A stretch of DNA of 64,000 bases from an uncultured Nitrososphaerales archaeon (lineage in GTDB: Archaea; Thermoproteota; Nitrososphaeria; Nitrososphaerales; Nitrososphaeraceae), in assembly GCA_963713605.1 (NCBI GenBank), contig CAVQMO010000001.1, positions 96,001-160,000 of the forward strand, read 5' to 3'. Positions within the stretch are counted from its first letter, which is position 1. Every line of letters begins with the position of its first letter. Both the position numbers and the translations under genes were made by a program. The notes under the pieces are model-generated. The model worked only from the letters and a program-made list of their open reading frames with translations. It did not search any database and was not told where the DNA came from. This document shows positions 3,951-51,642 of this stretch, in pieces.

Positions 3951-4075
3951 GTTTTTAGTAACTTTTTGCACCCGCTTTTTTTATTTCTTCAGCTTTTGCG
4001 TTGATATAACGCTGTTTTACGATTGACATAGTGTTTAAATACTCTTGAGGAGATGCACCATTAGTGAATTAGAAG

Positions 4076-4369
4076 ATGCCAATGGCCATAATCCCAGATA
4101 TAGACGAACAGAGATGTATTGGTTGTGCTCTCTGCGTAGAGATTTGTACAGCTTTAGGTCCAGATGTGCTCAGAGTAAAGCCAGTAGAAGGATGGAAAAG
4201 AGGAAAAGCATTCATCTTTTATCCTGAAAGATGCATATCAGATGGCGCATGCTTAGGGGTATGTCCTACCCATGCGATATTCTGGATGAGACCTATGGAA
4301 TACACTTCAGGACAACCGATTCCTCTACACAAGAATGGTGTGTTTGAGAAAGGTTGGGAAGAAGGTTAG
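4076..4369 (+). CDS. 4Fe-4S dicluster ferredoxin
   Basis: CIGCALCVEIC and CISDGACLGVCP motifs; T-rich terminator-like tract ~4405-4423. Confidence 0.92.
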   Translation: MPMAIIPDIDEQRCIGCALCVEICTALGPDVLRVKPVEGWKRGKAFIFYPERCISDGACLGVCPTHAIFWMRPMEYTSGQPIPLHKNGVFEKGWEEG

Positions 4370-35383: not shown

Positions 35384-37812
35384 CTATGACGATCTCATTC
35401 CACCCTTCTTTCTTTGTAGATCCGCCATAGATTTTCGTGCACTTTCGATAGCTTTCTGTCTTCGGGGCTTCAAAATCAGTATATAAAGGGAGCCTATCAA
35501 GTATATGGAAAGGAGAACAATTTGAGCAATCACAGATTCTAGTGTGGGATGGATACCTGTCATGGTTGCAAGGTTAATATCCAACCTAGGAACTATGCCG
35601 ACCAGTGGAGTAGTAGATACTATTCCTAATTCTTGCAATTCTCTGACTGCATTGCCCATGAATGCTATGGACATGTATGCTCCTATCCCCATGGTTAAGG
35701 CAAAGAGTACCCTTAAGGGCAACCTTCTGCCAAGCCTGTTGATTAAAATAGCAACACCAATGATCACCGCTAGTCCTATGACCATACCTGCAATAACATA
35801 CAACTCCATGTACTTTGCAAAGGATAGCATGGCTTGGTAAAACAAGACGGTTTCAAAACCTTCCCTATAGACCGTGAAAAACGCCAGAGCAACAAATACA
35901 ATTACACTACCCGTTGTAGTGGCCTTCCAGACCTTTGCTTTAACAAATTCGATCCATTTCTTGGTTTCGATCTTGTTTAGTACCCAGAAGCTCACCCAAA
36001 AAAGAACTGCTACAGCTGAAAGTCCAGCCACTGCCTCTATCAATTCCCTATTCGCTCCAGAAATCTCAATTACATACTGTGCCACAAACCAAGTTGCAGC
36101 TGTAGCAACTACTGCAATTAGAATCCCGTAGTAGACATGCTTTTTGAAGCGTGCATTTCTTGACGCTTGCAGATACGTTAGAATAGCGCCTATTATTAAG
36201 GCTGATTCAAGACCTTCTCTGAATATAATTGAAAAGGAAGTCGAGAATGCAATTGCAGGTGCCACAATTCCCACCCCGGACACAAGTCTCTCTGATTCGT
36301 CTAAGCCTCTTCTAATTTCTATGGTCTTTGCTTCGACTTCCTGTAGTGGTACATGCTCGCTGAAGTAGGTTCCTTAATTCAGCAAATCTAATCTCCATCT
36401 CAAGTGTAAAATCGGGGTCTATTGGCCTTAGCGGAATTTCAACGACTTCATAACTATCTAGATATGCCGACCGTGCGGCCAAAAGTGCACCTTCGTAATT
36501 CTTATTCTCATATATTCTAAGCATCTCACTTAGTTTCAATCTTATCCGGTCTATGTTGTTTCTCACAGATTCCTTTGCTGGATCATCTGCTTCTCCCATC
36601 TGCCGGAATTCGCCAGTATAAGTACCGAAGCCTTGCCTCAATCCTTGAATATTTGCAAGTGAAGACCCGCCGCTAGCTGTTGTATTAATATTCAAATTCG
36701 AACGGTATTCAGGATCATTTTTGAGCAAATCCTCAGCTTGGTCCAATTTGCCTAGGATAGCTGTGATAAAACCACTAATCCCTTGTGGAGATTGTTCCTC
36801 CCTTATCATTTGACGAAGTTCTTCCCTCATCTCTATTTCGATATCGAGCATCAAGTCGGGATCGTGTTTTTCGATAGGCGCTTCCAGATATTCGAAGTTA
36901 TCTAGATATGCTTTGATTGCAGTTGCGTCTGCAGCTTTATAGTCGCCCTCGTTCACCGACACAATAGTACTGTTAAGCAGATCCCTTGTAGTAGAAAAGT
37001 ATTTTGCCTGTTCTGATGCGCTCTCACTGCCACCACTTAAAGTTAGTTCCTCTGTAAAGTCTCGTTCAATTGCAGAAGCAACACTTACTACAGTATCAAA
37101 TGGAGTATCATTGTTCATACTTACCTGTATCTGTTGATAAAAAGATCTAATTTCATCTCGTCTCCTCTCATCAACGGAGTCCGCAACCCTTTCAAAATCT
37201 GCAAGTGACGTGTTTACCAACCCTAATGAGTTCTGAAGATTAAATGTGCTAGATTCATCCTGGATAGCTGAAGCGTTAGCTGAGCTTGTAGGATTGAATT
37301 GCGTCTTCCAGAAGCACAGCTGAGGCCTGCAGGAAAAATCCCTTATCTTCAGCAAAGCCTTGTCCTGCAATTGAGTTCGAGAGGCCGTTCAATAGGTTGT
37401 TTATCGTTACGACATCAGATTCTATATTGGAATTTGCGACTTCTGGGCTATTTGAAGCTCGAATCTTAATTGGAAAATCAGTAAGTAGTGCTTCAAGACT
37501 TTTTGAAGATGCTGGGTCTGTTTGACTTAATAAGGGCCTAATTACTGGGAAGGTAACCGAATGAGGAATATAGGCATGCTGGAATGCAGATTCGAGGTCA
37601 CCGCTGTTTAAACTATATTGCGTGAGGTTAAGTTGAGTTCCAATCCTTTCTAGATTGATGAAAACTATAAGTGGATCTGCCGATTGTTGGTTTTCGGCTG
37701 GTAGCTGCGCGATTCCATCATCGATAAAAAATGAGGAAATAACTAAGTTACTAGCAGCAAGAATCAAAAACGCTAAAAACAACGATTCTGTTAAGCGTCT
37801 GCTCAGACTCAT
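35384..37812 (-). CDS. FTR1-family iron permease with large extracellular N-terminal region (two frameshifts)
   Basis: REGLE and REGFE motifs in TM domain 35384..36283; signal helix and AYLD-motif domains in 36312..37812. Confidence 0.9.
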
Positions 37813-37815
37813 CTA

Positions 37816-37829
37816 TTAGGCTAACCTAA
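37816..37829. promoter_or_regulatory. DtxR/IdeR-like operator at FTR1 start
   Basis: TTAGGCTAACCTAA, 4-17 nt upstream of the FTR1 ATG. Confidence 0.75.
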
Positions 37830-37901
37830 GACTCACAAATAAATAGATTTCTTTTATTAGACATCGATTGGGTCATAGATGAAAATAATACTGTTTAAAT
37901 A

Positions 37902-37929
37902 TTAGGATTTCCTAATTAGGAAAGTCTAA
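37902..37929. promoter_or_regulatory. Tandem TTAG-N6-CTAA operators between TATA and ATG
   Basis: TTTAAATA (37894-37901), then TTAGGATTTCCTAA and TTAGGAAAGTCTAA, ATG at 37932. Confidence 0.75.
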
Positions 37930-37931
37930 CA

Positions 37932-38126
37932 ATGGAAAAGGCTTTCAAATTTCTCGAAAGTATAAATAAGAATGAAAAAATTGAAAAAGTTGAAGAAATA
38001 GATTTAACGACCTATATTTGTGACAATACTGATGGGATTTTGGATCCTTTAGACCAGATTACTTATGGATTGAACGAGGTTCAGGTTACGTACGGCAATG
38101 TGGTGGTCTTGAAAGATGCACCTTGA
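37932..38126 (+). CDS. Small acidic hypothetical protein
   Basis: 64 aa ORF directly after TATA and tandem operators. Confidence 0.65.
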   Translation: MEKAFKFLESINKNEKIEKVEEIDLTTYICDNTDGILDPLDQITYGLNEVQVTYGNVVVLKDAP

Positions 38127-38132
38127 TGAAAA

Positions 38133-38393
38133 ATGTCTCCGCCAAACTCTTCGGATAAAAATCCTATTGAGGATGACAAGGCCGATGAGGTGAAGGCGTT
38201 AATATCTAGATATATGCTTTTGAAAATTGAACAAAGAAAGATCGAGAATAAGTTGAATGAGGTAATAAAATACTATGACACCGAATCTCTTAGAATTATC
38301 TTCGAACCAATAGGTGACTCTATAATGGGAACCATTGGATTGGAACTTCCTCATAGGAAGAACGAAAAGGATATATCGCAGAATCAAACTTAA
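38133..38393 (+). CDS. Small hypothetical protein
   Basis: 86 aa ORF 6 nt after the preceding ORF, probable operon. Confidence 0.6.
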   Translation: MSPPNSSDKNPIEDDKADEVKALISRYMLLKIEQRKIENKLNEVIKYYDTESLRIIFEPIGDSIMGTIGLELPHRKNEKDISQNQT

Positions 38394-38630
38394 ATGCAGG
38401 CATATGCTGTTTATATTTAAAGGCTGATTCCGTTTTGAAGGCTAATTCCAAGTTGCAGCTGAATGCAGTTTCATTTCTTTGAATATATTAAATATCTTAT
38501 ATAAATCTGAGATTAAGGCTTAGAAAGATCATCAATTTTGTGATATCAGCAGGCGAAAGTGTAGAACGAATATTTTTAATATTATTTGGAATTATTTTGC
38601 GGTTTCTACAAATCTATCTACGCTTTATTA

Positions 38631-38644
38631 TTAGTTCGTACTAA
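38631..38644. promoter_or_regulatory. TTAG-N6-CTAA site upstream of the ferritin-gene TATA box
   Basis: TTAGTTCGTACTAA; TATA-like TTATTAAATA at 38656-38665; ATG 38697. Confidence 0.6.
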
Positions 38645-38696
38645 ATTGTTGAATATTATTAAATAGGAGTATATCTATATAGATATTGATTATAAA

Positions 38697-39182
38697 ATGG
38701 GCAAAATGGGAAAAGAAATAGCTGGCTCTGGTGTAGAAGGCACAATAGAGATGCTAAAGACTGCATATGCTGGAGAGTTGTCGGCGTTTCATTATTTCTG
38801 GTACGTTTCTCAGAATATAGAGGGACTAGGCGTGCTGGAACAAAAGTTTTTTGAAGAACGAGCAGATGAAGAACTGGGACACGCTAAAAAAGTCTCCGTT
38901 AGACTAATGCAGCTAGGAACTAATGCCAAAGACGACCCTGCCTTGTGGGAACAAGAAAGTGGATTGGGCAAACTACAACCTTCAAGGTATTTGACACTTC
39001 GAAGTGCTTTAGAGAAAGCTTTGGAATTCGAAAGGAGCGTTATCAAATTATACAATGATCTTGCGAATAACGTTAAGGATAAAGACCACGGTACCTACCA
39101 TCTGGCACTAGACTTACTTGATGCAGAGCTGGAGGACGAACAGACAATTGAGGACATACTCGCAAAGCTGGAAATCCATTGA
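38697..39182 (+). CDS. Ferritin-like protein (bacterioferritin/DPS-like)
   Basis: AYAGELSA..Y, DEELGHA..RL.QLG, ALEFE..I..Y, D..TY.L...L..E diiron-type motifs. Confidence 0.88.
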   Translation: MGKMGKEIAGSGVEGTIEMLKTAYAGELSAFHYFWYVSQNIEGLGVLEQKFFEERADEELGHAKKVSVRLMQLGTNAKDDPALWEQESGLGKLQPSRYLTLRSALEKALEFERSVIKLYNDLANNVKDKDHGTYHLALDLLDAELEDEQTIEDILAKLEIH

Positions 39183-39287
39183 GTACTTCTGCAATATTTT
39201 TTGACACTTTTTTCTTTCATTTCCTCAAATTAATTGTAAAGTAATTGAAGCTCTCAACCTTATTGTAAATAATCTTGTAAAAGTGGC

Positions 39288-40543
39288 TTAGCCCCATACT
39301 TTCTCCCTGAAAGTCCATTTCTTATTAAGTATAAAATTACTTATTGAAGCTGCAGCTACTGCACAAATGAGCGATAGATTATAAGATATTCCAGATTCAA
39401 CCATAAGATAGACTAACGTAAGCTGTATAGAAATCCCTAAAGAGCTGAAAATAAGAAACAACCCGTATTGTTTCAAAGTGTAAAGCACTGAAAACTTTTT
39501 GTCTTCAAACGTCCAAATCTTATTCAAGAGGAAATTAGTGGTTATTGAGACAGCTATTCCTATTGCGGTAGCCTGAACATACCAAAAATTAGCCAAGGTT
39601 CCATTAGAGAGTAGAAAAGAAACCAAGAAATTGATTACTAGTCCGCTGGCTCCTACAGTGAAGAACCTAGCTGCTTTTGACAGGAATAATACAGAATCTT
39701 CTGTGTTCTGTACCTCTCCAATCTTTTTTGCGATTTTCTTCCGTACTTGTATAGACTCCAAACTGCCTTAGTATAATCCACTAAGACCCTGAGATCCAGT
39801 TTACTATTCCCATATTTTCTCACAGTAAATGTATATGGAATCTCTTTTACGGTAACGTAACTCTGTTTCTTAACCAATATTTCAAGCAAAATCTTGAACC
39901 CTTGGGTATTGAAATCGATGTCCTTTAAAACATGACGTGGTAAAGCAAAAAATCCGGACATTGGGTCTCGAACTTCCTTTACGTTGAGGCCATACCTTGC
40001 AATTCCAGTCGCACCAAAACTAATTAAAAGTCTCTTTAATGGTACACCTACAATAGTGCCTCCCTTTGCGTACCTTGAACCAATCACGACACAATTAGAT
40101 TCGTTCTTGAGTTCACTTATGATGCGAGGTATAAGTTGAGGAGGGTGCGAAAAGTCAGCATCCATTACTAGTATGTTCTTCCCTCTCGAGGTCTTGATAC
40201 CATCAAGCACTGCACACATCAAGCCATCACGTCTCTGCCTATGAATAACCTTGATTGTCGGTGGGCGACTGTCGTTATGGCTTACGTCAAAATCACTCTC
40301 TAGTACAAACTTATCAACTAGAGAACCAGTCCCATCTGGAGAATTATCATCAATTATCAAAATTTCCGTCCTAATATCTTGAGGGATCTTGCTCGTAATT
40401 TCTCTTACTAGCCTGATGATATTTTCGCTTTCGTTATAGGTAGGTATAACAATTGACAAGAAAGTAGAGGATGTTTCTTCGATATGAGATGTCTCATTTT
40501 CTTGATGAGTTTGAAATAACTCAGCTGCTCTTTGATCCCTCAA
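39288..40543 (-). CDS. GT2 polyprenol-phosphate glycosyltransferase fused to GtrA domain (frameshift near 39720)
   Basis: SIVIPTYNE, IDDNSPDGT, MDADFSHPP, DPMSGFF; GtrA ARFFTVGASG..NFLLNKIWTF. Confidence 0.88.
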
Positions 40544-40676
40544 TGGTCGAATATGTTATAAAATATTATATATATATACTCCCGTTTGATTCTCAATAGA
40601 GAAAAACAAAATATGATAAATTGACGATCCTATTATAAGGTCAGAAAACTAAGATGTACATTTATCGATCTAAAAT

Positions 40677-41839
40677 ATGTTTAAATGTTTCAATAAAATT
40701 CGAATAAATTATAATATTTTGGCATCTGTTTTGATTCTAATGATGTTTTCGATGACATACTTAGGGCTTTCAATCCAAAATTATGCTTTGGCGTCGTTAC
40801 CTTGCGAAATTAGAAATGAAATGAAATCAGAGAATAGTGAAATTAACTTCTACTCATTAGTTCCGACCAATATTTCAGTAATGCCAGAATCATTACCTGC
40901 GGGTAACTTGTATCTTTCTCCAATTTTTTCTAACGGAACTGCCACGTATACCAGAAACCTGACCGATGAATTATTTCCCTTTCAACTAGATCGCATTGGA
41001 TCTCCAATGTCTCGTCCAACTACCGAAGTTGCTGCTCCGTTCTTGGTGATACTATTTACATAATATGTGGTTATGATGAGGGTGGTTGATATGGTAGAAT
41101 TGTACATTGCAACGTCTGATTCTTGGGGGAAGGGATTGCTCAACTACCTCTTCCGCTGCACCATACTTCTGCGGCTTCATATCAAGGTAAGATCTATGTC
41201 GCTGGAGGCTATACGGGAGATTGGCGCGAGCGACAGATTGTTTACTTATGATCCAACAACCAATGAATGGACTCAAGGTAAACCTATGCCTACTCCAAGA
41301 GGTTATCCTACTGCAAATTTCGTAAATGGTACCCTATGTCGTAGGAGGCGATGGCGGAGCTACTAATGAAAGGTCGTTGAATGCTACTTAATCATTTGAT
41401 CCTGTCACGAACAAATGGACTAGTCACGCCTCTATGCCCACAGCTAGGCATCACGCAGCATTCGCCGTAGTGGATGGTAAATTGTATGTAGTTGGAGGGA
41501 GAATTGGAGAGGAATTCAACAATGTAGATCTCGCTGAGGTGTATGACCCTGTTTTAGACAGTTGGACTACAAATCTTGAACCGAAGCCTTCAAAAAGAAG
41601 CGGAATAGGTGCGGTTTCATTAAATGGAGCAATCTACGTCCTGGGTGGAGAACTGACTCCAACCACTTTTCGATAATAACGAAACATACGATCCAGACAG
41701 GCATAAAGTCATTTTATTTTTTGCCGATAGCGACACGTCTAGCGATAACAAGCTTTTCATTTGCTCGGAGTGTAGAGCAAGGTGTAAATCTGAAGATTTG
41801 TTGAATGAACATATGTATGAAGAACATGGAAAGCAATAA
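40677..41839 (+). pseudogene. Kelch-repeat secreted protein, fragmented; last frame reads into a C2H2 finger
   Basis: Kelch fragments YDPTTNEW..MPTPR, MPTARHH..KLYVVGG, AIYVLGG in several frames; last frame FDNNETYDP...CSECRARCKSEDLLNEHMYEEHGKQ*. Confidence 0.65.
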
Positions 41840-42005
41840 TTAACGCTGATATGTTCCTCATATTTCATCCATTGCAGTTTGAATCTGTGTGTCCTTTTAT
41901 CCCATAAATCGACTGAATAGATCAGGCGGTCCAAATCATATGTCTTTAATTAGGTATTTTAATTGCGAAAGTCTCTCCAAAGAGAATCATAAACAAGGAT
42001 AAATA

Positions 42006-42033
42006 TTAGCCTAACCTAATTAGTATTAACTAA
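42006..42033. promoter_or_regulatory. Tandem TTAG-N6-CTAA operators
   Basis: TTAGCCTAACCTAA and TTAGTATTAACTAA after GATAAATA; no sizeable ORF downstream. Confidence 0.75.
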
Positions 42034-42034
42034 T

Positions 42035-42175
42035 ACGGTGAACAACTAACTATTGGAATGTCTGGGATTGGCATCTATGGAAATTCCAATAGAAGAACGC
42101 TGCAAACGCCAGGTCAGAAAATACACCTCCTACTCGATTGGATTATAACTACAACCTAACCCAATCGAGTAGGTC
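42035..42175 (+). ncRNA. Candidate iron-regulated small RNA (two hairpins)
   Basis: Inverted repeats 42050-42059/42083-42092 and 42129-42141/42161-42173; diverged copy at ~48035-48140. Confidence 0.4.
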
Positions 42176-42522
42176 TCCAACCAACTTGGTATGAACCAAA
42201 AGCATAGTTATTATCAAATATGAAGGGTATCTAGAAGTCTTAACATTCAATCATGTCGCATTGCAAGAGCCTACGTGTATCTCAGACCATCACTCAGAAA
42301 ATGAGCATATTGAACATTTGACACAAAAAGGTTCAATATATGCGATCTTGTTTGCGGTAAAGCTTATGAGGCTATCCACAATTAGTTGCCCCAATATTAT
42401 TCCCAAAGACAATAATTGCTCCTAAGCGAATACTCTAAAAAATGGACAAGAAAGAATGAAGTGGTTATTGGAAAGATAGGCGTGTGGCGTATCAACCGAA
42501 CAGTTGCTGTGCAGTAATCAAA

Positions 42523-42747
42523 TTACCACCAACTGTATTTACCAATTGTTGCAAGAGGTACTCTGGTTTCGATTGCATTTTGAATATCTTCTCTTATCAT
42601 TATTTCAGTTGCTTTCATCAAAGCTGGATTTAGTTGACCCAACGGAGCCTCTAGGAACTCGTAATTATCCAAATAAGCAATTTGTGCTAATTCCACTGCA
42701 CCAGTGAAATTCTGATTACCGTATCCTACTACTGCTTGATTTAACAA
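42523..42747 (-). pseudogene. Fragment of the AYLD-motif helical domain found in the FTR1 N-terminus
   Basis: AYLDNYEFLEAPL..E.MIRED versus AYLDNFEYLEAPI..E.EMREE in FTR1. Confidence 0.6.
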
Positions 42748-42824
42748 GCTCTGAATCGTAGAGATTAGTTCTAGTGGTTCGCTAGTTGAAAAGATAGTTT
42801 ACTTAATAGAATTTTTGATTGCCT

Positions 42825-43140
42825 CTATTTTCTAACGTGAACAGCGAGCCCATTTTCATTGAGACATGCCTCGATTGCTTTTATCTTGCTTCTATAATAG
42901 AGCACCTTCTTTCCATTATCATCTATAGATGCCCTCTCCACAGACAGAATCCCAGCTTTTACACAATCTACCTATCTTCTTGTAGGTTGAACTCAATGGT
43001 AGCTTATTCTCCGTTGAGATCTGAAGCACCGTCTTTGCTGAGTACATAGTCGATGTAATTATTTTATAAGTAATCATTTCTGCGACTTCTCTTAACAACA
43101 ATAATGAACTATTTTCTCCGTAATCAGTTGAAAGGCTCAT
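42825..43140 (-). CDS. ArsR-like winged-helix transcriptional regulator (frameshift near 42955)
   Basis: KTVLQISTENKLPLSSTYKKIGRL, continued by GILSVERASIDDNGKKVLYYRSKI..* in another frame. Confidence 0.7.
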
Positions 43141-43146
43141 TTCCGA

Positions 43147-43174
43147 TTAGACTAACCTAATTAGTGTAGCCTAA
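43147..43174. promoter_or_regulatory. Tandem TTAG-N6-CTAA operators in the divergent HTH/dehydrogenase promoter
   Basis: TTAGACTAACCTAA and TTAGTGTAGCCTAA; minus-strand ATTTAAATA at 43183-43175. Confidence 0.75.
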
Positions 43175-43181
43175 TATTTAA

Positions 43182-44562
43182 ATGCTATCCATTAGGCGAA
43201 CAATACTAATAATTAATGATCTCAAAGGTTTTCATCTATCTTCATTACCACAACCAACCAATAATTCTTCACCCATGCAAAAAATGCCAAGTCTGAGGGA
43301 TCCGAATCTAAGAGTTGAACTCGTTGCGAGTGGGCTAAAATATCCAACTGCTATGGCATTCGTAGGAAATGATGACATTCTTGTGCTAGAAAAAAATAAT
43401 GACACCATACGAAGGATTGTGAATGGCAAATTGTTCGATAAGCTTGTCTCTTGGATATCAATGTCGCAAATAAGGTAGAAAGAGGATTGCTAGGTATTGC
43501 AGTTGCAAATCAGACATTGGGAAATGATATGTTTAACAAGACAGTCTATCATTTTTATACTCAGTCTACTGAGGATGGTAACGACCTGTGCCCGGGCGCA
43601 ACTAGTTGTGGCATACAAATCCTATAGGTAATAGAGTGTATCGATACGAATGGACTGGTAGCGAGTTTGTAAGTATGAGTTTGATTTTAGATTTGCTAGT
43701 TGGACCAGGAGCAGACCATAATGGAGGTGTATTGAAAAAAGGACCTGTTGGCTCTTGTAGGAGATGGTGACAGTTGCTGGGAGTTTTGGTGTGCTGGACC
43801 TTTTGAAACAAGTACCGTGAACTCTGAATCATCCAATGTTGTTACAGGAACTCCCCCCGGACGGAAGAAGTGGAATTCTGAGGATAACACCATTTGGTGA
43901 ACCCGTACTGGAGGGAAAAAATGGTACCACTGGTGTTCTAGCCGATCATAGTCCTCTTAACAAATACTATGCATTTGGCATAAGAAATGGTTTTGGAATT
44001 GCGTTCGATCCGGTTACTAGTAAAGCTCTAGGATACCGAAAATGGACCTGGATATGGTGATGAAATCAACCTTGTGGAACCTGGATTCAATAGCGAATGG
44101 TTAAGGGTACAAGGATGGTGGCCAGTTACTACCTCAAACCCATTGCCTGCTGCTAGGGGATATTTTGCGGATGATATGGTAACGGTACCAGCAATTTTAG
44201 AAACCTTCGCAGACAAGGGAAAATATAGTAGTCCTGAATTTGCTTGGAATATGTCTGTCGGCGTAACAGCCTTAGGCTCTGGAAATGCACTAGGAGAAGA
44301 ATATGAAAATAATATGTTCGTAGCAGATTATAACAATGACTATTTGTATGATTTCGAATTAAGCGAGGACAGAACAAAGTTGGACCTTGAGGGTGAGCTT
44401 GTAGATAAGACTGCAAACGATAATGGGGAACTTGAAAAGGTGGCATTAGGGCAGGGATTTGGGGTTATTACCGATAATAAGGAAGGACCAGACGGGTATC
44501 TATATTTGCTGTCGCACATCCACGGAAACATTTACCGGATAGTTCCAAATTTGCCCACATAA
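43182..44562 (+). pseudogene. PQQ-dependent glucose/sorbosone dehydrogenase family protein, multiple frameshifts
   Basis: GLKYPTAMAF, ERGLLGIA, HNGG, YYAFGIRNGFGIAFDP, EGPDGYLY..GNIYRI in different frames. Confidence 0.75.
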
Positions 44563-44714
44563 TTCAAACATGCTTCGCATGTTGCTGTGCAATCCAAAAT
44601 TAGTATTCTCAGCTGCCATACAAATATTTATGTGTCGCATCGATATCTCCTTTCCCCGTGAATGATTTTCTATGGGTTGAGAATCATTAACAGCCTATTA
44701 TGACTCGGTATACT

Positions 44715-47305
44715 TTACTTCTTGATTACAGCAAGTACATCTTTTGAGGATGATTTTTGAACTTCATCCCTGATGACTTTAGAAAGATTCTCTGATGATG
44801 TGAGATTCGAAAAATCAATTAGACGAATATCATCCAAAAGGTGTACCTGTGGTGGAAGATCCCAGTGCTTGTCTTTTGTATTTTTGCTGTATCGGAACCT
44901 TTCATTTTTATCATCATTATATCCCTCTCTGTGATCAATTGAGCTTCCTAGCAAAGCAAGCAAGTCAGTCAAGACTTCCTGTTTGGTACCTTTGATAATG
45001 TTTACACCTGCTAAGGAAAGTCTTACCCGTCCAAACTTATCGAGAATCAATATAGAAATTCGCATTTTCTGAGAACGAGGGATAAACCCAAATAAATTCT
45101 TGACTTTTTTTTCACATTCAAATATGTGGTAATTCTTCAAATTAAAATCAACTCGTTTTACGGTCACATTCCTATTCGCTTCCATTATGTCGTCACCCGG
45201 GGCTTTTGAATTCGGGCTCGTCGCTGTCCCAAATAAATTCTTAGCGATGTCTTCAGCTTCATGTATGCTAATTTCCCTAGAATTCGATGTGCCTATGTCT
45301 AGGCTCATGTTACCTGTTGCGGTTACTCGCAGGAGAGATCGATCGCTAACATATTCTGATTGTACGGTAATAGACTCCGGTAGAGCGCCTTTAGCTAATG
45401 CTAAATCTTTCACTTCATCCATCATCATTGAGACCTCATCCGGTTTGGGATTCACATCAACTGTTTTCTCAAGTTCTTCATGAATCATAGCTGCCAGCTA
45501 CACCGATTGAAGATATAACCTCCGCATGTTGTGCTTTTTTATAATTCATATTAAGTGTCTTGGCTAGATGAGGAACAAGCACTGATGCGCCTCCGCCTCC
45601 TCCTACTAATATAAAATTACTGTTAGTAGTATTCCATTCTTTATTTCCAAAGCGGTTTTTATTCCCTGTCCTATTCAGTAAAAACCCTCTTGGTCTATTG
45701 TAGGTTAAATTGTATTCCTTCAACATAGGATTCATGATTTGCAAAACCTTGTCGGTCGCGATATCAAGTATCTGGTTGGCAGCTTTTTCCATCGAAGTAC
45801 CTATTTCTCTGGCAAGAATTGATAAGGCGATCTTAGCAGATTCGGAATTGCCTTTGGCATAATCGTCATCAGAGATCAAACCAAGCGCATTAGCGGCACA
45901 TGTAGTAGTTATGGCAAATAGCCTTTCTCTCAAATCCCCGTCTTTTTCTGATCCACTTCTGCCTCTAATTACAGCGTATACCATGCTTTGATCTTCGACA
46001 TTACTGTTGGACTCATTTACACTAGTTGAATGTTTGAGAACAGAGCCATCTTCTATCTCCGGCCGAAATTGTATTATCGTTCCTCCATCGAGCTGGGAAG
46101 GCTCTGCAAAACAGGAATACTCCAAGCCAGCTATGTGCGCGGATCGAGGACCCACATCTACTATTTTTCGCTTATCTTTTGACAACATCACTATAGAACC
46201 TCCAGCGACATTCACAACTCTTACATCCAATGATCTAATACATGTTGGATGTTGAACTATGGTTGCGTAGTTGACTTTGGGTTTACCATCTTTTATTACG
46301 CACACATTTGTCGAAGTCCCTCCAACCTCTACAAAAACCCCATTTAGTACCCTTAAGTGAAGAAGAGCCCCCGCTACACTTGCAGCAGGGCCTGAAAGAA
46401 CAGTTATAATGGGTTTTATCTCAAACGCACTGATATCTGTAACTCCTCCATCACCTTTCATTACCTTTATTGGTATATTCTTGGGAATTCCCAGCTTTTC
46501 TCTTACGGCATATTCAACAAACCTTGCTGTACTGGCAGCTTTGGGTAGTATACTTGCATTAATCACTGCAGTCATAGTTCGGATCTCAAGACCGTAAATC
46601 CCGGTCAGATCATGTGCTGCAATTATTGGAACCTTCTTTTTGTCACTTCCCGTATTACTTGACCTTGCAATATTTTCTACGAAATCTTCGTTACTGGGAT
46701 CGTCTACACCATATGCTTCGCTGATTACAAGTACCTCAGCTCCTTCGCGCACTAATTCGCAAATTGAAGATCTCACACTTTCTTCGCTCAAATAGGAGGA
46801 AGTGTCCAAGTACCTATAACAAGTCTTAATAGACTTTTTCCCGTTACCATCGAGTAGTATATCTTTTATATGTGTGCGTTTAATGATATTGGACTTCTCT
46901 AAGCTAACACCCATTCCTAAGATTCCCACTTTAGCTGTATCACCTTCGAGCAGGGCATTCACAGCCTGAGTAGTACGTATGAGATATGAGTTCCACTTCA
47001 GAATTTTGTATATGAAATTCATTCATGACATCTGATAGTGTTTGTAAAATGCCTGTTGAAACACCTTGATCTGATTTGTGGGTGGTAGGAAGAGTAGACT
47101 GTCCTAGAATACTCCCTGTGGCCATATCGATTGCAACTGCTTTGGTGAACGTGCCCCCGACATCGATACCAACTCTTATCCGCCTTTTCTTAGAATCTGG
47201 ATTGGTCCGATAATTGGCATGAGGAGAAATGTCGGCATTCTGGCTATGATCATCAGATTCTGCAATCTTATTTTGGTTCAGATATTCACGTTGTTCGCCA
47301 GACAT
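44715..47305 (-). CDS. Hydantoinase/oxoprolinase family ATP-dependent enzyme (two frameshifts)
   Basis: RVGIDVGGTFTKAV, TTQAVNALLEG, LSGPAASVAGA, EVGGTSTN, GGGGGA. Confidence 0.85.
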
Positions 47306-47323
47306 CCCTTATATACTCTCGAA

Positions 47324-47337
47324 TTAGTGTCACCTAA
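47324..47337. promoter_or_regulatory. TTAG-N6-CTAA operator of the hydantoinase-like gene
   Basis: TTAGTGTCACCTAA between minus-strand TTTAAATAAA (47362-47353) and ATG at 47305. Confidence 0.7.
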
Positions 47338-47625
47338 TTATCAGGATTTACCTTTATTTAAACCAATGATTGAGAACCGGAATATCATTCTTTAGGGTGT
47401 TGCATAATCTGAATAAACTAACAATTTATCCTTTCTAACTCGCGGCGGGCTATCAATTAGGGAAGGCCAATTTCTTTGCTATCCTAATGATGCTGAGGGT
47501 CTAGTTCTGCTACAATAGGCTCCAGTGGTATCCAATAATTGACAACACTTTATCACGAATGAAAATGTGAAATTATGGCCAGTGAAATGTTCCGACCTAG
47601 AAAAGATTGTTAGATAAAACATTGC

Positions 47626-47817
47626 ATGAGAACGCCTTATACCTATATAAGACCCATTGCGCACATAAGACGAACGATATTGAACAAGCCCAACATACGC
47701 AGTGATAGCGAAACGTCTAGAGATAACATGATTTTCATTTGCACCGAATGCAATGCTAGGTGTAGATCTGAAGAATTATTGAAGGAACATACGTATGAGG
47801 AACATGGAAAGCAATAA
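47626..47817 (+). CDS. Small C2H2 zinc-finger protein
   Basis: FICTECNARCRSEELLKEHTYEEH; paralogous to 41726-41839. Confidence 0.65.
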   Translation: MRTPYTYIRPIAHIRRTILNKPNIRSDSETSRDNMIFICTECNARCRSEELLKEHTYEEHGKQ

Positions 47818-48200
47818 TCAACTTTAACAATATAGCTCAAGGATTACAGTATGGATATCTGTCTACTTTTTGCCTTAGCCCGACTAAGTGAGACAACTAA
47901 ACCCATGGTTATTCGAAGGTGCATGAGTTTGGAAAAGTTCTCCTAAAGAGAATCATAAACAAAGATAAGTTAAATGTATTAGCCTCATCCTCTGATAAAG
48001 AGAATTACCCTCACCTAATTAGGTGTGGCTAATACATTTAACAATAACTATTGGAACTTATGGAAACGCTGATAGAAAGTCATATCATGCGGGATTGAGA
48101 ATACCTCCTTCTCGATTGGAATTTGACCACCGCCATCGAATTAAATGACGACATCTATTTCTTTACGTGAACTACGAGTCCATTTTCATTTAGACATGCC
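47700..48200. repeat. Diverged duplicate of the 41.7-42.9 kb module
   Basis: Shared C2H2 coding segment, AAAGAGAATCATAAACAA, operators, CTATTGGAA, ACCTCCTnCTCGATTGGA and HTH 3' end (48155-48200 vs 42825-42870). Confidence 0.8.
48005..48032. promoter_or_regulatory. Tandem operators (one degenerate)
   Basis: TTACCCTCACCTAA and TTAGGTGTGGCTAA. Confidence 0.65.
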
Positions 48201-48414
48201 TGATGTAATTAGGGGGGGACCAAATCTTGGATTGTCCGTTTCGTGGGAAATTGAAATCTAAAATGTAAATAAGATGGATTACGTATCGAAGAAAGGTTTC
48301 CACCGAAGATTTATCTACCTGCTATTTGTTAGTGAAGGTTTCAACACGTATAAATAATTGGAATATGATCCTGCATGAATTATATTCCTTTTCAGCATAA
48401 TCATAGATCCGAGA

Positions 48415-48579
48415 TTGGTCTCAAAGAATAAGCAGAAATTTGTGTCTAAGGAAGAGGAAGAATACCTAAAAAAGATTGCGGAGATATGTGAGAGTGTCAT
48501 TTGTAAGTCTTGTGGCCGTTTTAACATCAGACATTGCAGATTGTGCCGCAACTGTGGGAGCGAGCTCCGACTCGATTAA
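48415..48579 (+). CDS. Small zinc-ribbon protein (54 aa, not in ORF track)
   Basis: TTG start; MVSKNKQKFVSKEEEEYLKKIAEICESVICKSCGRFNIRHCRLCRNCGSELRLD*. Confidence 0.6.
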   Translation: MVSKNKQKFVSKEEEEYLKKIAEICESVICKSCGRFNIRHCRLCRNCGSELRLD

Positions 48580-49050
48580 AAGGGCCAAATTGTTAATTGA
48601 CGAATGATTGCATCACAAAATCCTGACCAGCGGTTCGAAACCTTTCTTCAAAGTATCGAAAGCTAATTCACACAACCCCCAATAAAAGACCGGTTGATAA
48701 ATATTCCTTTAAATGATATCTGTTGACCTAGAACAGATAAAGAATCCGTCAAATATCCTACAGCTCCATAGCCATATCTTGTTTATAATATGGTCTAGCA
48801 AAATCAAGAATATCAATTTTGAAGCTAGTCGACTCTAGTTAATATATGATTTAATTGCAGCGGATCAACTACAGAATTCAATTCAATGACTGCAACTTGA
48901 AGTACAAATACTACCATTCTATCGAACCATATTTGGGCAGATATTATGGGGTCATACTTAGAAATTATAGTATGATTCAGTTTTGTGCGCAAATCTTCTT
49001 GCTAAAAATAATTCAGTTCTCTGAGGGGCCAAAGACCAGTACATAATTAT

Positions 49051-49200
49051 AACATACACGTTACCTGATAGGGGATCTATTGTAAGTCATTCCAGCATTG
49101 AGAACTGTCCATTTTCTTGCCCCTCTTCACCCCATTCGGCAATACATGTCCTATTACTTGTGAATTTTTGTACACGATGGTTACCAGAATCAGTGATGTC
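49051..49200 (-). pseudogene. NHL-repeat gene remnant
   Basis: ITDSGNHRVQKFTSN..EWGEEGQENGQF..*LTIDPLSGNVYV with in-frame stop. Confidence 0.65.
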
Positions 49201-49331
49201 AGACACAGTCGCCTTGGTGAATTACCTTTACATCCGTAGGATTTTTATGCGATCTCAGTTTGGTTGGAATCGTACTAAAGTGTATTTGCTGCTGTATACG
49301 TCCGTATGAATCATCGTAGGCTTCGATTGGC

Positions 49332-49592
49332 TTATGAGTATATACTTAGCTTCTTCCTTCTCCTTTTGCTGCCCATCGGTTTTTTGGAGGAGGTTGGCAT
49401 TACGCGGGCATTGAGGAGAACTGAATTACAGATTGGACAGAAACCTTCGATTGCAGCTTTATGATTGGCAAGTCTTACATAGGAAGATGATCTAATATCT
49501 ACTACAAGTTTACAATTTGTGCAATACGCCCTTCGCATCGGCCTTGGAATCTCCCTGAGTAGTGTTCCAATCCTATTAATATTATCCTTCAT
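49332..49592 (-). CDS. Small basic zinc-ribbon protein (DUF5679-like)
   Basis: RAYCTNCK..LANHKAAIEGFCPICNS, basic tail. Confidence 0.65.
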   Translation of the reverse strand: MKDNINRIGTLLREIPRPMRRAYCTNCKLVVDIRSSSYVRLANHKAAIEGFCPICNSVLLNARVMPTSSKKPMGSKRRRKKLSIYS

Positions 49593-49774
49593 TCAGGGTA
49601 CTATTGATTTTTCCTGGATGGGGGGCATAGAAAGAGCTAGTACTTTGGGGCATTTTGGACGACAAAGTAAACAAGAAAAGAGACCCCTAAATCAATAACA
49701 CCATTGGATACGACTCTTAACTTATGAATCGATACAACCTATCAGAAGAAATAATGATCGTTTGTGTCTTGTTA

Positions 49775-50164
49775 TTAGTGAGCGGCCGAAAAGGAAAATT
49801 TCGTATTAAAAATGTTATTTTTCTCATCCTCTTCTGTTATAGAGCTACCAACTCCTCCGAATAGCGTGGCACGAAATTCATTTGACTCTCCCGTGCTGGT
49901 CACAGTATATTCATGTTTCCATAGATGGTTCGCTTGCAGCTTAATCCACGTTATGGGTAACGGGCTAGGAACGACCTTCACATTATCCCTGTAGAGGACC
50001 CCCATTACTGCTATTTCTCCAGCAGGCTGATTGCTGTCGTTAGCTACAACGTAGCGGATCGTAATACTAGAAGGATGATTTAGTGTTGATCCACTAGAAA
50101 CTGCTTTACCATTGCTCTGATCAATCAATTTGATCCATGCCTGGGTATCAGGAAATTCTGGCAT
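49775..50164 (-). CDS. CARDB/Ig-like beta-sandwich protein
   Basis: ITIRYVVANDSNQPAG..ITEEDEKNN. Confidence 0.6.
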   Translation of the reverse strand: MPEFPDTQAWIKLIDQSNGKAVSSGSTLNHPSSITIRYVVANDSNQPAGEIAVMGVLYRDNVKVVPSPLPITWIKLQANHLWKHEYTVTSTGESNEFRATLFGGVGSSITEEDEKNNIFNTKFSFSAAH

Positions 50165-50703
50165 ATCATGTAGCTAGGATTGAATCTTATAAACCTATAA
50201 CGCTATAGCGTTATATCCTATCCTCCAATGCTGAATCCATGCTAAACGTAATTCTCTATTCGAGGTACGATCCTATTTTTATCACCAAAGGGTTATACCA
50301 CTCATGTTCAGCTCGCACACTTCATGTAAAGACTAAAAGCATCCAATTCTAAGCTTATAGGAAGACCTAGATCAATTTCAAGGCGTCCGTGTACCCAAAA
50401 ATCAACGGTACATCATCTCGAGAGCACCCTCGCATAATATGACTCGGCGATAATATAATTGCTTGTAAGTTATGCTCAATTGGTGAGTACATTATAAAAT
50501 CAGTAGTGCTCTCTCACTCTGAATCCTCAGAATTCAACTTATTTGCCTCCATCCAAAGTTCATTTAATACCGAACTATTTTTCAATTTGTGGGGAGCCAA
50601 AAGGTAATATATGATAATACATTTCAGACTCGCGTAAACAGAGCATGAGTAAGGAGAGGCATGCAGTTAAGGAACACTCAAGACCCAGAACTATGCTTCC
50701 GAT

Positions 50704-50928
50704 CTAGGTCTTGCCCTCTGCTGACTCATGTTGTTTCTTCTCAAGTTCTGTAATTCGCTTCTCCAGATCCTGGACGTTACGGGTTGTCTTTACTTCTAAG
50801 ACTTGTTTCTCTTGTTCTGAGACTCGTTTTTCTAAATCGAAGATCCTATGATTTGTATCTAGGATTTCTTTAGTTAGACTAACAACTAATTGGCCTAGTG
50901 AGTTTATTTCTTCATCGTTCCTAACCAT
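50704..50928 (-). CDS. Small coiled-coil protein
   Basis: Repeated DLEKRVSEQEK / DLEKRITELEK. Confidence 0.6.
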   Translation of the reverse strand: MVRNDEEINSLGQLVVSLTKEILDTNHRIFDLEKRVSEQEKQVLEVKTTRNVQDLEKRITELEKKQHESAEGKT

Positions 50929-51597: not shown

Positions 51598-51642
51598 CTC
51601 TTCTAATTCATTCTCTTCTTCTAACTCATTCTCTTCTTCTAA
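51598..51642. repeat. 18-bp tandem repeat (~2.5 copies)
   Basis: TTCTAA(T/C)TCATTCTCTTC; minus strand reads LEEENELEEENELEE in a gene remnant. Confidence 0.7.

What the first reader, a model, noticed from the sequence alone, without database searches (positions are those of the whole stretch)
41998..42175. Candidate iron-repressed small RNA (possible RyhB analogue), present in two copies with wobble-preserving changes
Seen: a TATA-like GATAAATA and two perfect operators are followed by no real ORF (only 23-33 codon frames, not conserved in copy 2). Instead there are two hairpins: CTATTGGAAT/ATTCCAATAG (10 bp) and CCTACTCGATTGG/CCAATCGAGTAGG (13 bp). The copy after the 48005-48032 operators keeps CTATTGG (48048-48054), and its partner changes from CCAATAG to CTGATAG (48069-48075), which still pairs via two G-U wobbles on the + strand. 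Both copies keep ACCTCCT, an anti-Shine-Dalgarno-like sequence, at the base of hairpin 2. Known: bacteria use Fur-repressed sRNAs (RyhB, PrrF) for iron sparing. Inferred: an analogous sRNA here.
Basis: partly seen in the sequence, partly recalled or inferred. Interest (0 to 1): 0.75.

Follow-up and report, generated by a model that had tools for sequence, protein, structure and literature searches.

The report
Operator-controlled anti-ferredoxin small RNA gene
This stretch of a soil ammonia-oxidising archaeon most likely encodes a small non-coding RNA, switched by a metal-type repressor site, whose conserved loop can pair with the start of ferredoxin messages and so may spare iron when it is scarce.

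Summary
The element at 42028-42186 (+) is most likely a real, conserved non-coding RNA gene. Full-length homologues occur in 9 of 13 same-genus genomes. A divergent sister RNA lies on another contig of this genome. Related RNAs follow the same promoter and operator in 6 of 18 Nitrososphaeraceae genera, including Nitrososphaera. No reading frame is conserved. A 3' hairpin is kept with different sequences across genera.

The new result is a predicted target. The invariant core (GUCUGG-NN-UUGGCAUCU) is antisense to the 5'UTR, AUG and first codons of two paralogous 4Fe-4S ferredoxin genes, one of them in this window at 4076. These two genes rank 4th and 6th (copy-1 loop) and 1st and 11th (sister-RNA loop) of 6705 start regions.

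The operator is two tandem TTAGG-N4-CCTAA units. The same unit sits in the promoter of the window's FTR1 iron-permease operon, which supports an iron link by context only.

"Copy 2" (48005-48150) is a decayed duplicate lacking the core. The anti-Shine-Dalgarno motif is poorly conserved. No usable expression evidence was obtained.

The parts
41972..41987 (.). Upstream palindrome (family form TTCTC-N6/7-GAGAATC), about 12 nt before the TATA-like box. Possible second regulator site.
   Evidence: Conserved block in the genus alignment. Similar palindromes lie upstream of most RNA promoters in other genera (read by eye).
41998..42005 (+). TATA-like box GATAAATA (TTTAAATA in most other genera).
   Evidence: The same TATA-operator-start geometry occurs at 37894-37932 and, on the minus strand, at 43182-43138.
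42006..42033 (.). Double operator: two tandem 14-bp units, TTAGCCTAACCTAA and TTAGTATTAACTAA. Family consensus TTAGGnnnnCCTAA, twice.
   Evidence: The pattern is found in 86 of 151 family genomes and 14 of 18 genera; the reversed control pattern gives 0.
42028..42186 (+). Predicted small RNA, about 160 nt. The 5' end is inferred from the TATA distance and the 3' end is not mapped.
   Evidence: Covariance model hit at 42046-42186, 150.7 bits. Homologues in 9 of 13 same-genus genomes.
42050..42092 (+). Hairpin 1: a 10-bp stem enclosing a 23-nt loop that carries the core motif.
   Evidence: G.U pairs favour the + strand.
42060..42078 (+). Invariant core GTCTGGGATTGGCATCTAT, antisense to the ferredoxin start regions.
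   Evidence: Invariant in 11 of 11 homologues. Shared with the sister RNA and with other genera. Pairing table.
42125..42131 (+). ACCUCCU, the anti-Shine-Dalgarno-like motif at the 5' foot of hairpin 2.
   Evidence: CACC is kept in 12 of 16 representatives and CACCUCC in 5 of 16, by my reading.
42129..42173 (+). Hairpin 2: a 13-bp stem with a variable loop, extended by an outer helix (42112-42119 with 42174-42182). Terminator-like.
   Evidence: 16 of 16 representatives have a 9-14 bp stem at this place, with different sequences.
4074..4098 (+). Predicted target site on ferredoxin fdx-a mRNA: AGAUGCCAAU (4074-4083, over the AUG at 4076) and AUCCCAGA (4091-4098). The gene runs 4076-4369.
   Evidence: Pfam Fer4; rank 6 and 11 of 6705.
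47994..48150 (+). Decayed duplicate ('copy 2'). It has a TATA-like box, operator units at 48005-48018 (TTAC..., imperfect) and 48019-48032, and a stem remnant. The core is deleted and the 3' arm of hairpin 2 is lost.
   Evidence: no model hit at E <= 10.
43147..43182 (-). Double operator (43147-43174) and TTTAAATA (reverse complement of 43175-43182), driving the minus-strand winged-helix regulator gene (ATG at 43140) and the secreted-protein gene behind it.
   Evidence: RNA-run contigs cover 42488-43134.
37816..37929 (.). Divergent control region. A single unit, TTAGGCTAACCTAA (37816-37829), lies before the minus-strand FTR1 permease operon (ATG at 37812). A double operator (37902-37929) follows TTTAAATA and precedes a 64-aa ORF (37932).
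   Evidence: (Pfam FTR1, 63.4 bits).

Best explanation
The element is the gene of a trans-acting antisense small RNA of about 160 nt on the + strand.

**Promoter.** It is an archaeal TATA-like box. Between that box and the transcription start lie two tandem TTAGG-N4-CCTAA operator units. When a metal-loaded repressor is bound there, it should block the polymerase. The repressor is either a DtxR-family protein or the small autoregulated winged-helix protein of the same regulon.

**Action.** When the metal (most likely iron) is scarce, the RNA is made. Its hairpin-1 loop exposes GUCUGGGAUUGGCAUCUAU. This pairs with the very short 5'UTR, the AUG and codons 2-3, and again with codons 7-8, of the two 4Fe-4S ferredoxin mRNAs. 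Pairing should block translation initiation and perhaps trigger decay, lowering demand for iron while the FTR1 uptake genes of the same regulon go up.

**Other parts.** Hairpin 2 with its U-rich tail ends and stabilises the transcript. The core looks like an inverted copy of the ferredoxin gene's 5' end, so the RNA probably arose from its own target.

**Shown by computation:** conservation, structure, lack of a conserved reading frame, operator distribution, complementarity and its rank.

**Inferred:** transcription, the 5' and 3' ends, which protein binds the operator, which metal is sensed, and repression of ferredoxin.
For: **Conservation as its own unit**
- There are 10 full-length places in 9 of 13 same-genus genomes.
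- A distant full-length homologue in another genus scores 34.1 bits (E 3.7e-4, 1.5e-5). It carries compensatory changes in both stems.
- In that genome the RNA lies between an FTR1 permease gene and the winged-helix gene, all on one strand. In this genus it is convergent with them. So the RNA moves together with its own promoter.

**A family across genera**
- The operator followed within 70 nt by TTGGCATC is found in 28 of 238 genomes and 6 of 18 genera. The reversed control pattern gives 0.
- The Nitrososphaera forms are about 90 nt and contain no ATG.

**Structure**
- 96.9% of cells pair in the genus alignment.
- 405 of 418 cells pair on the + strand against 373 of 418 on the minus strand. 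40 cells pair only on + (G.U) against 8 only on minus.
- A 3' stem of 9-14 bp is present in 16 of 16 representatives, with different sequences.
- Within Nitrososphaera, 2 stem pairs each show double changes in 3 of 8 sequences.

**Non-coding**
- The ATG frame stops at codon 7 in 3 homologues and at codon 14 in a fourth.
- The other frame loses its start codon in 2 homologues and is shifted in 2 (read by eye).

**Target**
- Only 4 ORFs in the genome start on AGATGCCAA, and one of them is ferredoxin fdx-a. The paralogue fdx-b starts on ATAGATGCCA.
- Of 6705 start regions, fdx-b and fdx-a rank 4 and 6 for loop A, and 1 and 11 for loop B.
- In 19 of 20 RNA variants with a ferredoxin 5' end in hand, the longest Watson-Crick run against fdx-a (9-13 nt) spans the AUG.
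- Lineage-specific changes lengthen the pairing: 12 nt in G008b, 13 nt in type B, and reach into the 5'UTR in G020 and G084.

**Metal link**
- The single operator unit lies between the TATA-like box and the ATG of the FTR1 operon.
- Elsewhere the operator precedes a ZIP transporter gene.
- A DtxR-family gene lies two genes upstream in G003.
- The published 19-bp IdeR iron box contains the same TTAGG-N4-CCTAA unit twice, overlapping (consensus read in PMC4598388).
- In Nitrosopumilus maritimus, iron limitation lowers one abundant ferredoxin by an unknown mechanism (PMC12974425, passages).
Against: **Expression.** There is no usable expression evidence. Contigs of three RNA runs cover the neighbouring genes (42488-43134) but not the RNA. 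The one contig over 42055-42269 comes from a library that the tool marks as probably DNA.

**Covariation within the genus is weak.**
- Only 3 of 38 pairs have double changes.
- 23 to 46 of 500 shuffles reach the observed measures.
- Hairpin 2 has about as many minus-only as plus-only events. It could serve both strands.

**Complementarity is not unique by raw score.**
- A genome-wide blastn-short search with the reverse complement finds random 14-15-mers that score higher than the ferredoxin sites.
- The two ferredoxins are paralogues and the RNAs share their motif by descent, so the ranks are not independent.
- The target was found by a post hoc motif search.

**The operator is not a canonical iron box.**
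- Matches to the 19-bp iron box with up to 4 mismatches are not enriched: 15 observed against about 11 in shuffles.
- The DtxR-family protein scores as well for MntR (manganese) as for DtxR, both below cut-off.
- In 20 of 32 TATA-adjacent operator sites in other genomes the gene behind is the winged-helix regulator (judged by eye). That protein shows no evident metal site.

**Local decay.** In this genome the winged-helix and secreted-protein genes carry frameshifts.

**A possible ORF.** The sister RNA has a 42-codon ORF with a weak Shine-Dalgarno-like run.
Confidence: 0.5

Rival explanations
1. The small RNA is real and operator-controlled, but ferredoxin is not its main target or iron is not the signal. 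It could answer to manganese, zinc or copper. It could pair through the C-rich CACCUCC stretch with ribosome-binding sites of other mRNAs. It could also act as a protein sponge.
For: - Random sequences in the genome match the RNA's complement as well or better by raw score.
- The DtxR-family protein scores for MntR as well as for DtxR.
- A ZIP transporter gene is in the regulon in another genus.
- CACC precedes hairpin 2 in 12 of 16 representatives (read by eye).
Against: - The only block kept across six genera is the one complementary to the ferredoxin start.
- Both ferredoxin paralogues rank in the top 11 of 6705 for both RNAs.
- An FTR1 iron permease operon carries the operator unit.
- CACCUCC itself is kept in only 5 of 16 representatives.
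Confidence: 0.2
2. It is a small-protein gene, or a dual-function RNA. Candidates are the 33-codon ATG frame at 42058 or the 31-codon TTG frame at 42053. In the sister locus the candidate is a 42-codon frame behind a weak Shine-Dalgarno-like run.
For: - ORFs exist.
- Indels in the sister RNA's loop are multiples of three.
Against: - The ATG frame stops at codon 7 in 3 homologues and at codon 14 in one.
- The TTG frame loses its start in 2 homologues and is frameshifted in 2.
- The 34 invariant nucleotides show no synonymous variation.
- The three-base indels lie in an (ATA)n run, which slippage explains.
- The Nitrososphaera forms have no ATG.
Confidence: 0.07
3. There is no functional RNA. 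The conserved blocks are DNA-level elements: regulator sites plus a bidirectional terminator between convergent genes. The promoter would then drive nothing of consequence.
For: - In this genome the minus strand folds as well as the plus strand.
- Hairpin 2 shows similar numbers of plus-only and minus-only events.
- In this genus the element faces the end of a convergent operon.
- RNA contigs do not cover it.
Against: - In G020 and in Nitrososphaera the context is not convergent, yet the promoter, core and hairpin are kept.
- Hairpin 1 carries U.G pairs that would be A.C mismatches on the other strand.
- A DNA site would not explain a core that tracks the ferredoxin start sequence.
Confidence: 0.08
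4. It is a decaying inverted fragment of a ferredoxin gene's 5' end, and the resemblance is a relic without function.
For: - The minus strand reads MPIPDI... and, in the sister locus, MPIACYPDI.... The ferredoxins begin MPMAIIPDI and MPVAIIPDV (read by eye).
- The locus in this genome holds several broken genes.
Against: - A relic would not stay invariant over 34 nt in 11 of 11 homologues while its flanks vary.
- Nor would it persist behind the same operator in 6 genera.
- Only about 25 nt around the AUG are kept, with no ferredoxin promoter and none of the rest of the gene.
Confidence: 0.05

Closest known systems
MrsI (ncRv11846), the mycobacterial iron-sparing sRNA
   Same: It has a binding site for a DtxR-family repressor (IdeR) near its transcription start. 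Its seed lies in the apical loop of a 5' hairpin and a terminator hairpin ends it. It pairs with the 5' ends of mRNAs for iron-containing proteins (PMC6016810, passages read). The layout of the element here is the same.
   Different: MrsI is bacterial and unrelated in sequence. Its seed is 6 nt and its validated target is bfrA. Here the RNA is archaeal and the operator is two tandem 14-bp units rather than one 19-bp box. The complementarity is 9-13 nt plus a second block, the predicted target is ferredoxin, and nothing has been tested at the bench.
RyhB / PrrF (Fur-repressed iron-sparing sRNAs of enterobacteria and Pseudomonas)
   Same: The proposed logic is the same: a repressor lets go at low iron, and the sRNA then shuts down mRNAs of dispensable iron proteins (as summarised in PMC6016810).
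   Different: There is no sequence or structure homology (0 Rfam matches at E <= 1). There is no Fur box and no bacterial promoter. Dependence on Hfq cannot be assumed in an archaeon.
IsrR of Staphylococcus aureus (iron-repressed sRNA)
   Same: [quoted passage not shown]
   Different: It is bacterial and unrelated in sequence. Its details were not read here.
IdeR/DtxR iron box (TTAGGTTAGGCTAACCTAA)
   Same: The published 19-bp consensus (PMC4598388, passage; PMC7174319, Table 1) holds the unit TTAGG-N4-CCTAA twice, offset by 5 bp. The operator here is built from that same unit. The copy at 37816-37829 equals positions 6-19 of the consensus.
   Different: Here two units stand in tandem, offset by 14 bp. 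The full 19-bp box is not matched better than chance. Which protein binds is unknown.

Membership tests
RyhB (Rfam family) or any other curated RNA family | A match to the family's covariance model | tested here: not met
   0 matches at E <= 1 for window 38000-52000, both strands, against 4227 Rfam families.
RyhB-like iron-sparing sRNA (functional class) | A promoter carrying the site of an iron-sensing repressor | tested here: inconclusive
   The operator lies between the TATA box and the start. It is shared with the FTR1 operon. It is built of the iron-box unit. The 19-bp box is not enriched and the binder and the metal are unknown.
RyhB-like iron-sparing sRNA (functional class) | Base pairing with mRNAs of iron-containing proteins at or near the start codon | tested here: met
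   This holds by computation only. Runs of 9-13 nt span the AUG of fdx-a in 19 of 20 RNA variants. The two ferredoxins rank 4 and 6, and 1 and 11, of 6705.
RyhB-like iron-sparing sRNA (functional class) | Induced at low iron, with targets going down | not testable with these tools
   No iron-series RNA data were available. Laid RNA-run contigs did not cover the element.
Trans-encoded base-pairing sRNA gene | Own promoter and own 3' hairpin, conserved as a unit in different genomic contexts | tested here: met
   (16 of 16 representatives have a stem of 9-14 bp).
Trans-encoded base-pairing sRNA gene | No conserved reading frame | tested here: met
   Stops, lost starts and frameshifts are seen in the genus alignment. 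The Nitrososphaera forms have no ATG.
Trans-encoded base-pairing sRNA gene | A discrete transcript | tested here: inconclusive
   There is one 215-nt contig with 0 differences over 42055-42269, in a library labelled cDNA that the tool marks as probably DNA. Three RNA runs have no contig there.
Canonical DtxR/IdeR 19-bp iron box | A close match to TTAGGTTAGSCTAACCTAA | tested here: not met
   The best operator matches carry 4 mismatches. The genome-wide count at up to 4 mismatches is 15, against about 11 in shuffles.

The most novel reading that the evidence does not exclude
This would be the first iron-sparing small RNA family of Archaea. The RNA would have been born as an inverted copy of the 5' end of the ferredoxin gene. 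It would sit under a DtxR-type operator shared with FTR1 and ZIP uptake genes. It is kept across Nitrososphaeraceae, including cultivable Nitrososphaera. It would silence the cell's abundant 4Fe-4S ferredoxins at low iron. That would supply the missing mechanism for the ferredoxin drop seen in iron-limited ammonia oxidisers.
Probability: 0.45. Interest if true: 0.85.

Novelty: new variant of a known kind. Interest (0 to 1): 0.72.

Why it matters
**Iron economy of ammonia oxidisers.** Ammonia-oxidising archaea need unusually much iron, largely for ferredoxins, and their iron economy bears on nitrification in soils and oceans (PMC12974425, passages). How they regulate it is unknown.

**A testable circuit.** The result proposes one concrete circuit: operator, small RNA, ferredoxin start. 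It is conserved in genomes of the genus Nitrososphaera, which has cultivated members (that they are cultivated is recalled). It could be tested with a northern blot and a reporter assay.

**Novelty in print.** It would be an archaeal counterpart of RyhB or MrsI that evolved independently, and a clear case of a regulator RNA derived from its own target. My six literature searches found no description of such an RNA in the held library.

Tried and rejected
- **RNA runs.** One search and one laying of four runs. RNA contigs of X4, X5 and X8 lie only on 42488-43134. X2 has one 215-nt contig on 42055-42269 but is marked as probably DNA. Neither presence nor absence of the RNA can be concluded.
- **Whole-genome duplex scan.** I replaced it with blastn-short, in which the ferredoxin sites are not among the top hits, and with a scan of 6705 start regions.
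- **Model R1 against the sister RNA.** It does not detect type B (best 6.4-9.6 bits, E 0.6-2.8). The two are linked only by shared motifs, operator and layout.
- **Canonical iron box.** No enrichment, so the operator is not filed as one.
- **Coding in type B.** In-frame indels first suggested coding. I rejected this because they sit in an (ATA)n run.
- **Literature.** The paper on archaeal DtxR regulons (PMC4285986) is not held and may bear on the operator. Search one search returned nothing relevant.
- **Earlier findings of this scan.** Nothing for this genome or for these words.
Full report
**1. The observation**

The window is G000:C1:96001-160000 of a 4.09-Mb, 15-contig genome with about 39% G+C. 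Titled public records that carry the same element are uncultured Nitrososphaeraceae or Nitrososphaerales genomes, and for the shorter form Nitrososphaera.

- GATAAATA at 41998-42005.
- Two ATTAG-N6-CTAAT palindromes at 42005-42020 and 42019-42034.
- Hairpin 1, arms at 42050-42059 and 42083-42092.
- Hairpin 2, arms at 42129-42141 and 42161-42173.
- ACCTCCT at 42125-42131.
- In the second copy, CTATTGG at 48048-48054 with CTGATAG at 48069-48075.

The + strand folds at -45.9 kcal/mol (z = -4.66). In this genome the minus strand folds just as well (z = -5.45), because both stems are perfect Watson-Crick pairs here.

**2. Copy 2 is a relic**

Aligning 41650-42330 with 47640-48320 shows a segmental duplication. 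It covers a small zinc-finger gene, the promoter block, the operators and the start of the element.
- Copy 2 lacks 15 nt of the hairpin-1 loop and the 3' arm of hairpin 2.
- From about 48160 it matches 42838-42878 by eye. I read that as a deletion of about 660 bp.
- The covariance model built from the homologues finds copy 1 at 150.7 bits and nothing at copy 2 up to E = 10.

**3. Homologues and structure within the genus**

A DNA search of 61 genomes found 10 full-length places in 9 of 13 same-genus genomes, at 76-91% identity. One of these genomes, G013, is unpublished. It is one of 11 rows in everything that follows, and no conclusion rests on it alone.

In the 11-row alignment:
- 34 nt, GGAATGTCTGGGATTGGCATCTATGGAAATTCC, are essentially invariant.
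- The linker and the hairpin-2 loop vary freely, with indels.

RNAalifold gives 38 pairs. Of the 418 cells, 96.9% pair.

Covariation inside the genus is weak. Only 3 pairs have changes on both sides, and 23-46 of 500 shuffles reach the observed measures.

The strand can still be told. 9 of 11 sequences have U.G where this genome has U-A. Overall 405 of 418 cells pair on the + strand against 373 of 418 on the minus strand. 40 cells pair on + only and 8 on minus only. That structure was predicted on the + strand, which favours it somewhat. Hairpin 2 alone is about even.

**4. Not a protein gene**

Reading the alignment by eye:
- The ATG frame (42058) meets a stop at codon 7 in three homologues and at codon 14 in a fourth.
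- The TTG frame (42053) loses its start in two homologues and is frameshifted in two.
- The Nitrososphaera forms have no ATG at all.

**5. A wider family**

Model R1 found the element in 11 of 151 family genomes, G000 included. That is 9 of 13 in this genus, 1 of 1 in genus g8, and 0 in the 16 other genera.

The g8 hit (G020, 34.1 bits) has compensatory changes in both stems: GGAAU/AUUCC becomes GGGAU/AUCCC, and CGAUUGG/CCAAUCG becomes CGGUUC/GAGCCG. There the RNA lies between an FTR1 permease gene and the winged-helix gene, all on one strand. Each has its own TATA box and double operator. In this genus the RNA is instead convergent with the winged-helix and secreted-protein operon. So the promoter and RNA move as one unit.

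In the window's own genome a second, divergent member (type B) lies at C10:360114-360330. It has the same TATA-like box and double operator. It contains AUGUCUGG...AUUGGCAUCUGUAU and a hairpin beginning CCUACUCGG. Type B is conserved in 11 of 13 genus members and has a comparable predicted fold. R1 does not detect it.

The pattern "operator, then TTGGCATC within 70 nt" occurs in 28 of 238 family genomes and 6 of 18 genera. The reversed control pattern gives 0.

In Nitrososphaera the RNA is short. It has a single-stranded 5' part, GGAAGUCUGGC(A/G)UUGGCAUCUACC. Then come CACC(U/C)CC, a G+C-rich hairpin, and CCUAACC with a U-rich tail. Two of its stem pairs each show double changes in 3 of 8 sequences.

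Across 16 representatives from 6 genera, all 16 have an uninterrupted 9-14 bp stem after the core, and the stem sequences differ. 13 of 16 beat every one of 20 shuffles. This cross-genus conservation of shape with changed sequence is the main structural evidence.

**6. The operator**

The family-wide form is TTAGGnnnnCCTAATTAGGnnnnCCTAA. It is found in 86 of 151 genomes and 14 of 18 genera, with 0 for the reversed control. It always sits between the TATA box and the start, which is where an archaeal repressor would act (inference).

In 20 of 32 TATA-adjacent sites in other genomes, the gene behind it is a ~105-123-aa winged-helix protein. I recognised these by eye from their conserved N-terminal halves.
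- Pfam gave weak TrmB matches below cut-off in 2 of 4 tested.
- NCBIfam gave weak Sta1/Lrs14 matches.
- So that regulator is autoregulated across the family.

Other genes behind the operator are a ZIP transporter, secreted proteins that share a domain with the N-terminus of the long FTR1 permease, and the RNAs.

Sites in the window:

| Place | Form | What it precedes |
|---|---|---|
| 37902-37929 | double | a 64-aa ORF; a ferritin-like gene follows at 38697 |
| 42006-42033 | double | the small RNA |
| 43147-43174 | double | the winged-helix operon, minus strand |
| 48005-48032 | double | the relic (copy 2) |
| 37816-37829 | single unit | FTR1 operon, between its TATA-like box and ATG |
| 47323-47338 | single palindrome (ATTAG-N6-CTAAT) | a hydantoinase-like gene, minus strand (not followed up) |

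The published IdeR iron box TTAGGTTAGGCTAACCTAA (PMC4598388, passage; PMC7174319, Table 1) contains this unit twice, overlapping. The copy before the FTR1 operon equals its positions 6-19. That each unit takes one repressor dimer is recalled, not checked.

As a 19-mer the box is not enriched: 15 sites with up to 4 mismatches against about 11 in shuffles.

A DtxR-family gene (Pfam Fe_dep_repress and Fe_dep_repr_C) lies two genes upstream of the RNA in G003. In G000 its homologue is on contig C3.

Which protein binds, and which metal it senses, remain open. Iron is the reading that fits FTR1, the ferritin-like gene and the predicted target.

**7. The predicted target**

The block common to all RNA forms, UUGGCAUCU preceded by (G)UCUGG, is the reverse complement of AGAUGCCAA...CCAGA, which holds a start codon.

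Only 4 ORFs of 60 aa or more in the genome begin on AGATGCCAA. One is a 97-aa two-cluster 4Fe-4S ferredoxin at window 4076 (fdx-a; Pfam Fer4). Its paralogue at C1:257109 (fdx-b) begins ATAGATGCCAGTC...CCAGAT.

Both genes and their 10-12-nt leaders are nearly invariant across the family.

Duplex energies were computed against 6705 candidate start regions (ORFs of 90 aa or more, spurious ones included). The ranks were:

| RNA loop | fdx-b | fdx-a |
|---|---|---|
| A (this element) | 4 | 6 |
| B (sister RNA) | 1 | 11 |

Across 20 RNA variants from 14 genomes with ferredoxin 5' ends in hand, the longest Watson-Crick run against fdx-a is 9-13 nt. It spans the AUG in 19 of them. The exception is the type-B variant of the unpublished G013, whose run covers +2 to +11.

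Variation goes with the target:
- Type B's GCAAUUGGCAUCU gives 13 nt with the ATT form of fdx-a.
- The second type-A copy of G008 (CUAUAU) gives 12 nt with the AUAUAG leader of fdx-b.
- G020 and G084 extend into the leader through UAUUCAC.
- One type-B copy of G011 carries AACUGG, which fits fdx-b's CCAGU (partly by eye).

On the minus strand the core reads like the ferredoxin N-terminus (MPIPDI, MPIACYPDI against MPMAIIPDI). So the RNA probably arose from an inverted copy of its target's 5' end (inference).

Caveats:
- The search that found the target was post hoc.
- The two ferredoxins and the RNAs are each related by descent.
- A plain alignment search finds random 14-15-mers elsewhere that score higher.

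**8. Expression**

Nothing usable was obtained. RNA-run contigs from two studies cover the winged-helix and secreted-protein genes (42488-43134). One 215-nt contig with no differences covers 42055-42269, in a library the tool marks as probably DNA.

**9. Comparison and novelty**

Rfam has no matching family.

The nearest described system in layout is MrsI of mycobacteria. It has an IdeR site at the start, a seed in the loop of a 5' hairpin, a terminator, and pairing to the 5' ends of iron-protein mRNAs (PMC6016810, passages). RyhB and PrrF share the logic only.

My searches of the held library found no small RNA of this kind in archaea. Supplements and subscription journals were not covered.

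In Nitrosopumilus maritimus, iron limitation lowers one abundant ferredoxin by an unknown route (PMC12974425, passages). Orthology with the ferredoxins here was not tested.

**10. Verdict**

| Claim | My odds |
|---|---|
| Real, conserved small RNA gene | about 0.85 |
| Ferredoxin is a direct target | about 0.6 |
| The signal is iron | about 0.55 |
| The whole chain | about 0.5 |

Noticed in passing
G000:C10:360097-360347 (locus L012:1490-1740): A second, divergent member of the RNA family (type B) sits behind the same TATA-like box and double operator. It lies next to a 325-aa secreted protein that shares the FTR1-N-terminal-like domain. It is conserved in 11 of 13 genus members.
   Followed up: yes
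window 35384-37845: A minus-strand operon encodes an FTR1 iron permease (35384-36283) and two upstream proteins without a family. A single operator unit, TTAGGTTAGCCTAA on its own strand, lies directly before its ATG at 37812.
   Followed up: partly
window 41972-41987; loci: A second palindrome (TTCTC-N6/7-GAGAATC) lies about 10-20 nt upstream of the TATA box of most of the RNA promoters across genera. I did not see it at the winged-helix gene promoters. It may be a site for a second regulator.
   Followed up: partly
window 42523-43140, 43182-44562, 41067-41676: Several genes around the RNA are broken in this assembly: the winged-helix regulator, the 152-aa secreted protein, a PQQ-dehydrogenase-like gene and a Kelch-repeat gene. 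RNA contigs of relatives show one T fewer in the T4 run at 42956-42959 and 8 extra bases at 42550-42552. So some breaks may be assembly errors at homopolymers. The genome's 87% completeness despite only 15 contigs would fit that.
   Followed up: partly
window 37932-38393: Two small ORFs (64 and 86 aa) without a family stand directly behind a perfect TTTAAATA and double operator, upstream of a ferritin-like gene (38697-39182). They are unknown members of the regulon.
   Followed up: no
window 47323-47338: A single ATTAG-N6-CTAAT palindrome next to a TTTAAATA on the minus strand lies before a hydantoinase/oxoprolinase-like gene (47305 downwards, itself split).
   Followed up: no
window 41726-41840 and 47626-47817: A small C2H2-like zinc-finger gene (52-63 aa) always precedes the RNA promoter in this genus and was duplicated with it. 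In copy 1 no start codon opens the frame.
   Followed up: no
loci L121-L131: In Nitrososphaera the last operator half (GCCUAAU) could pair with AUUGGC of the core if it is transcribed. That would be a possible self-masking helix, and it depends on the unmapped start site.
   Followed up: no
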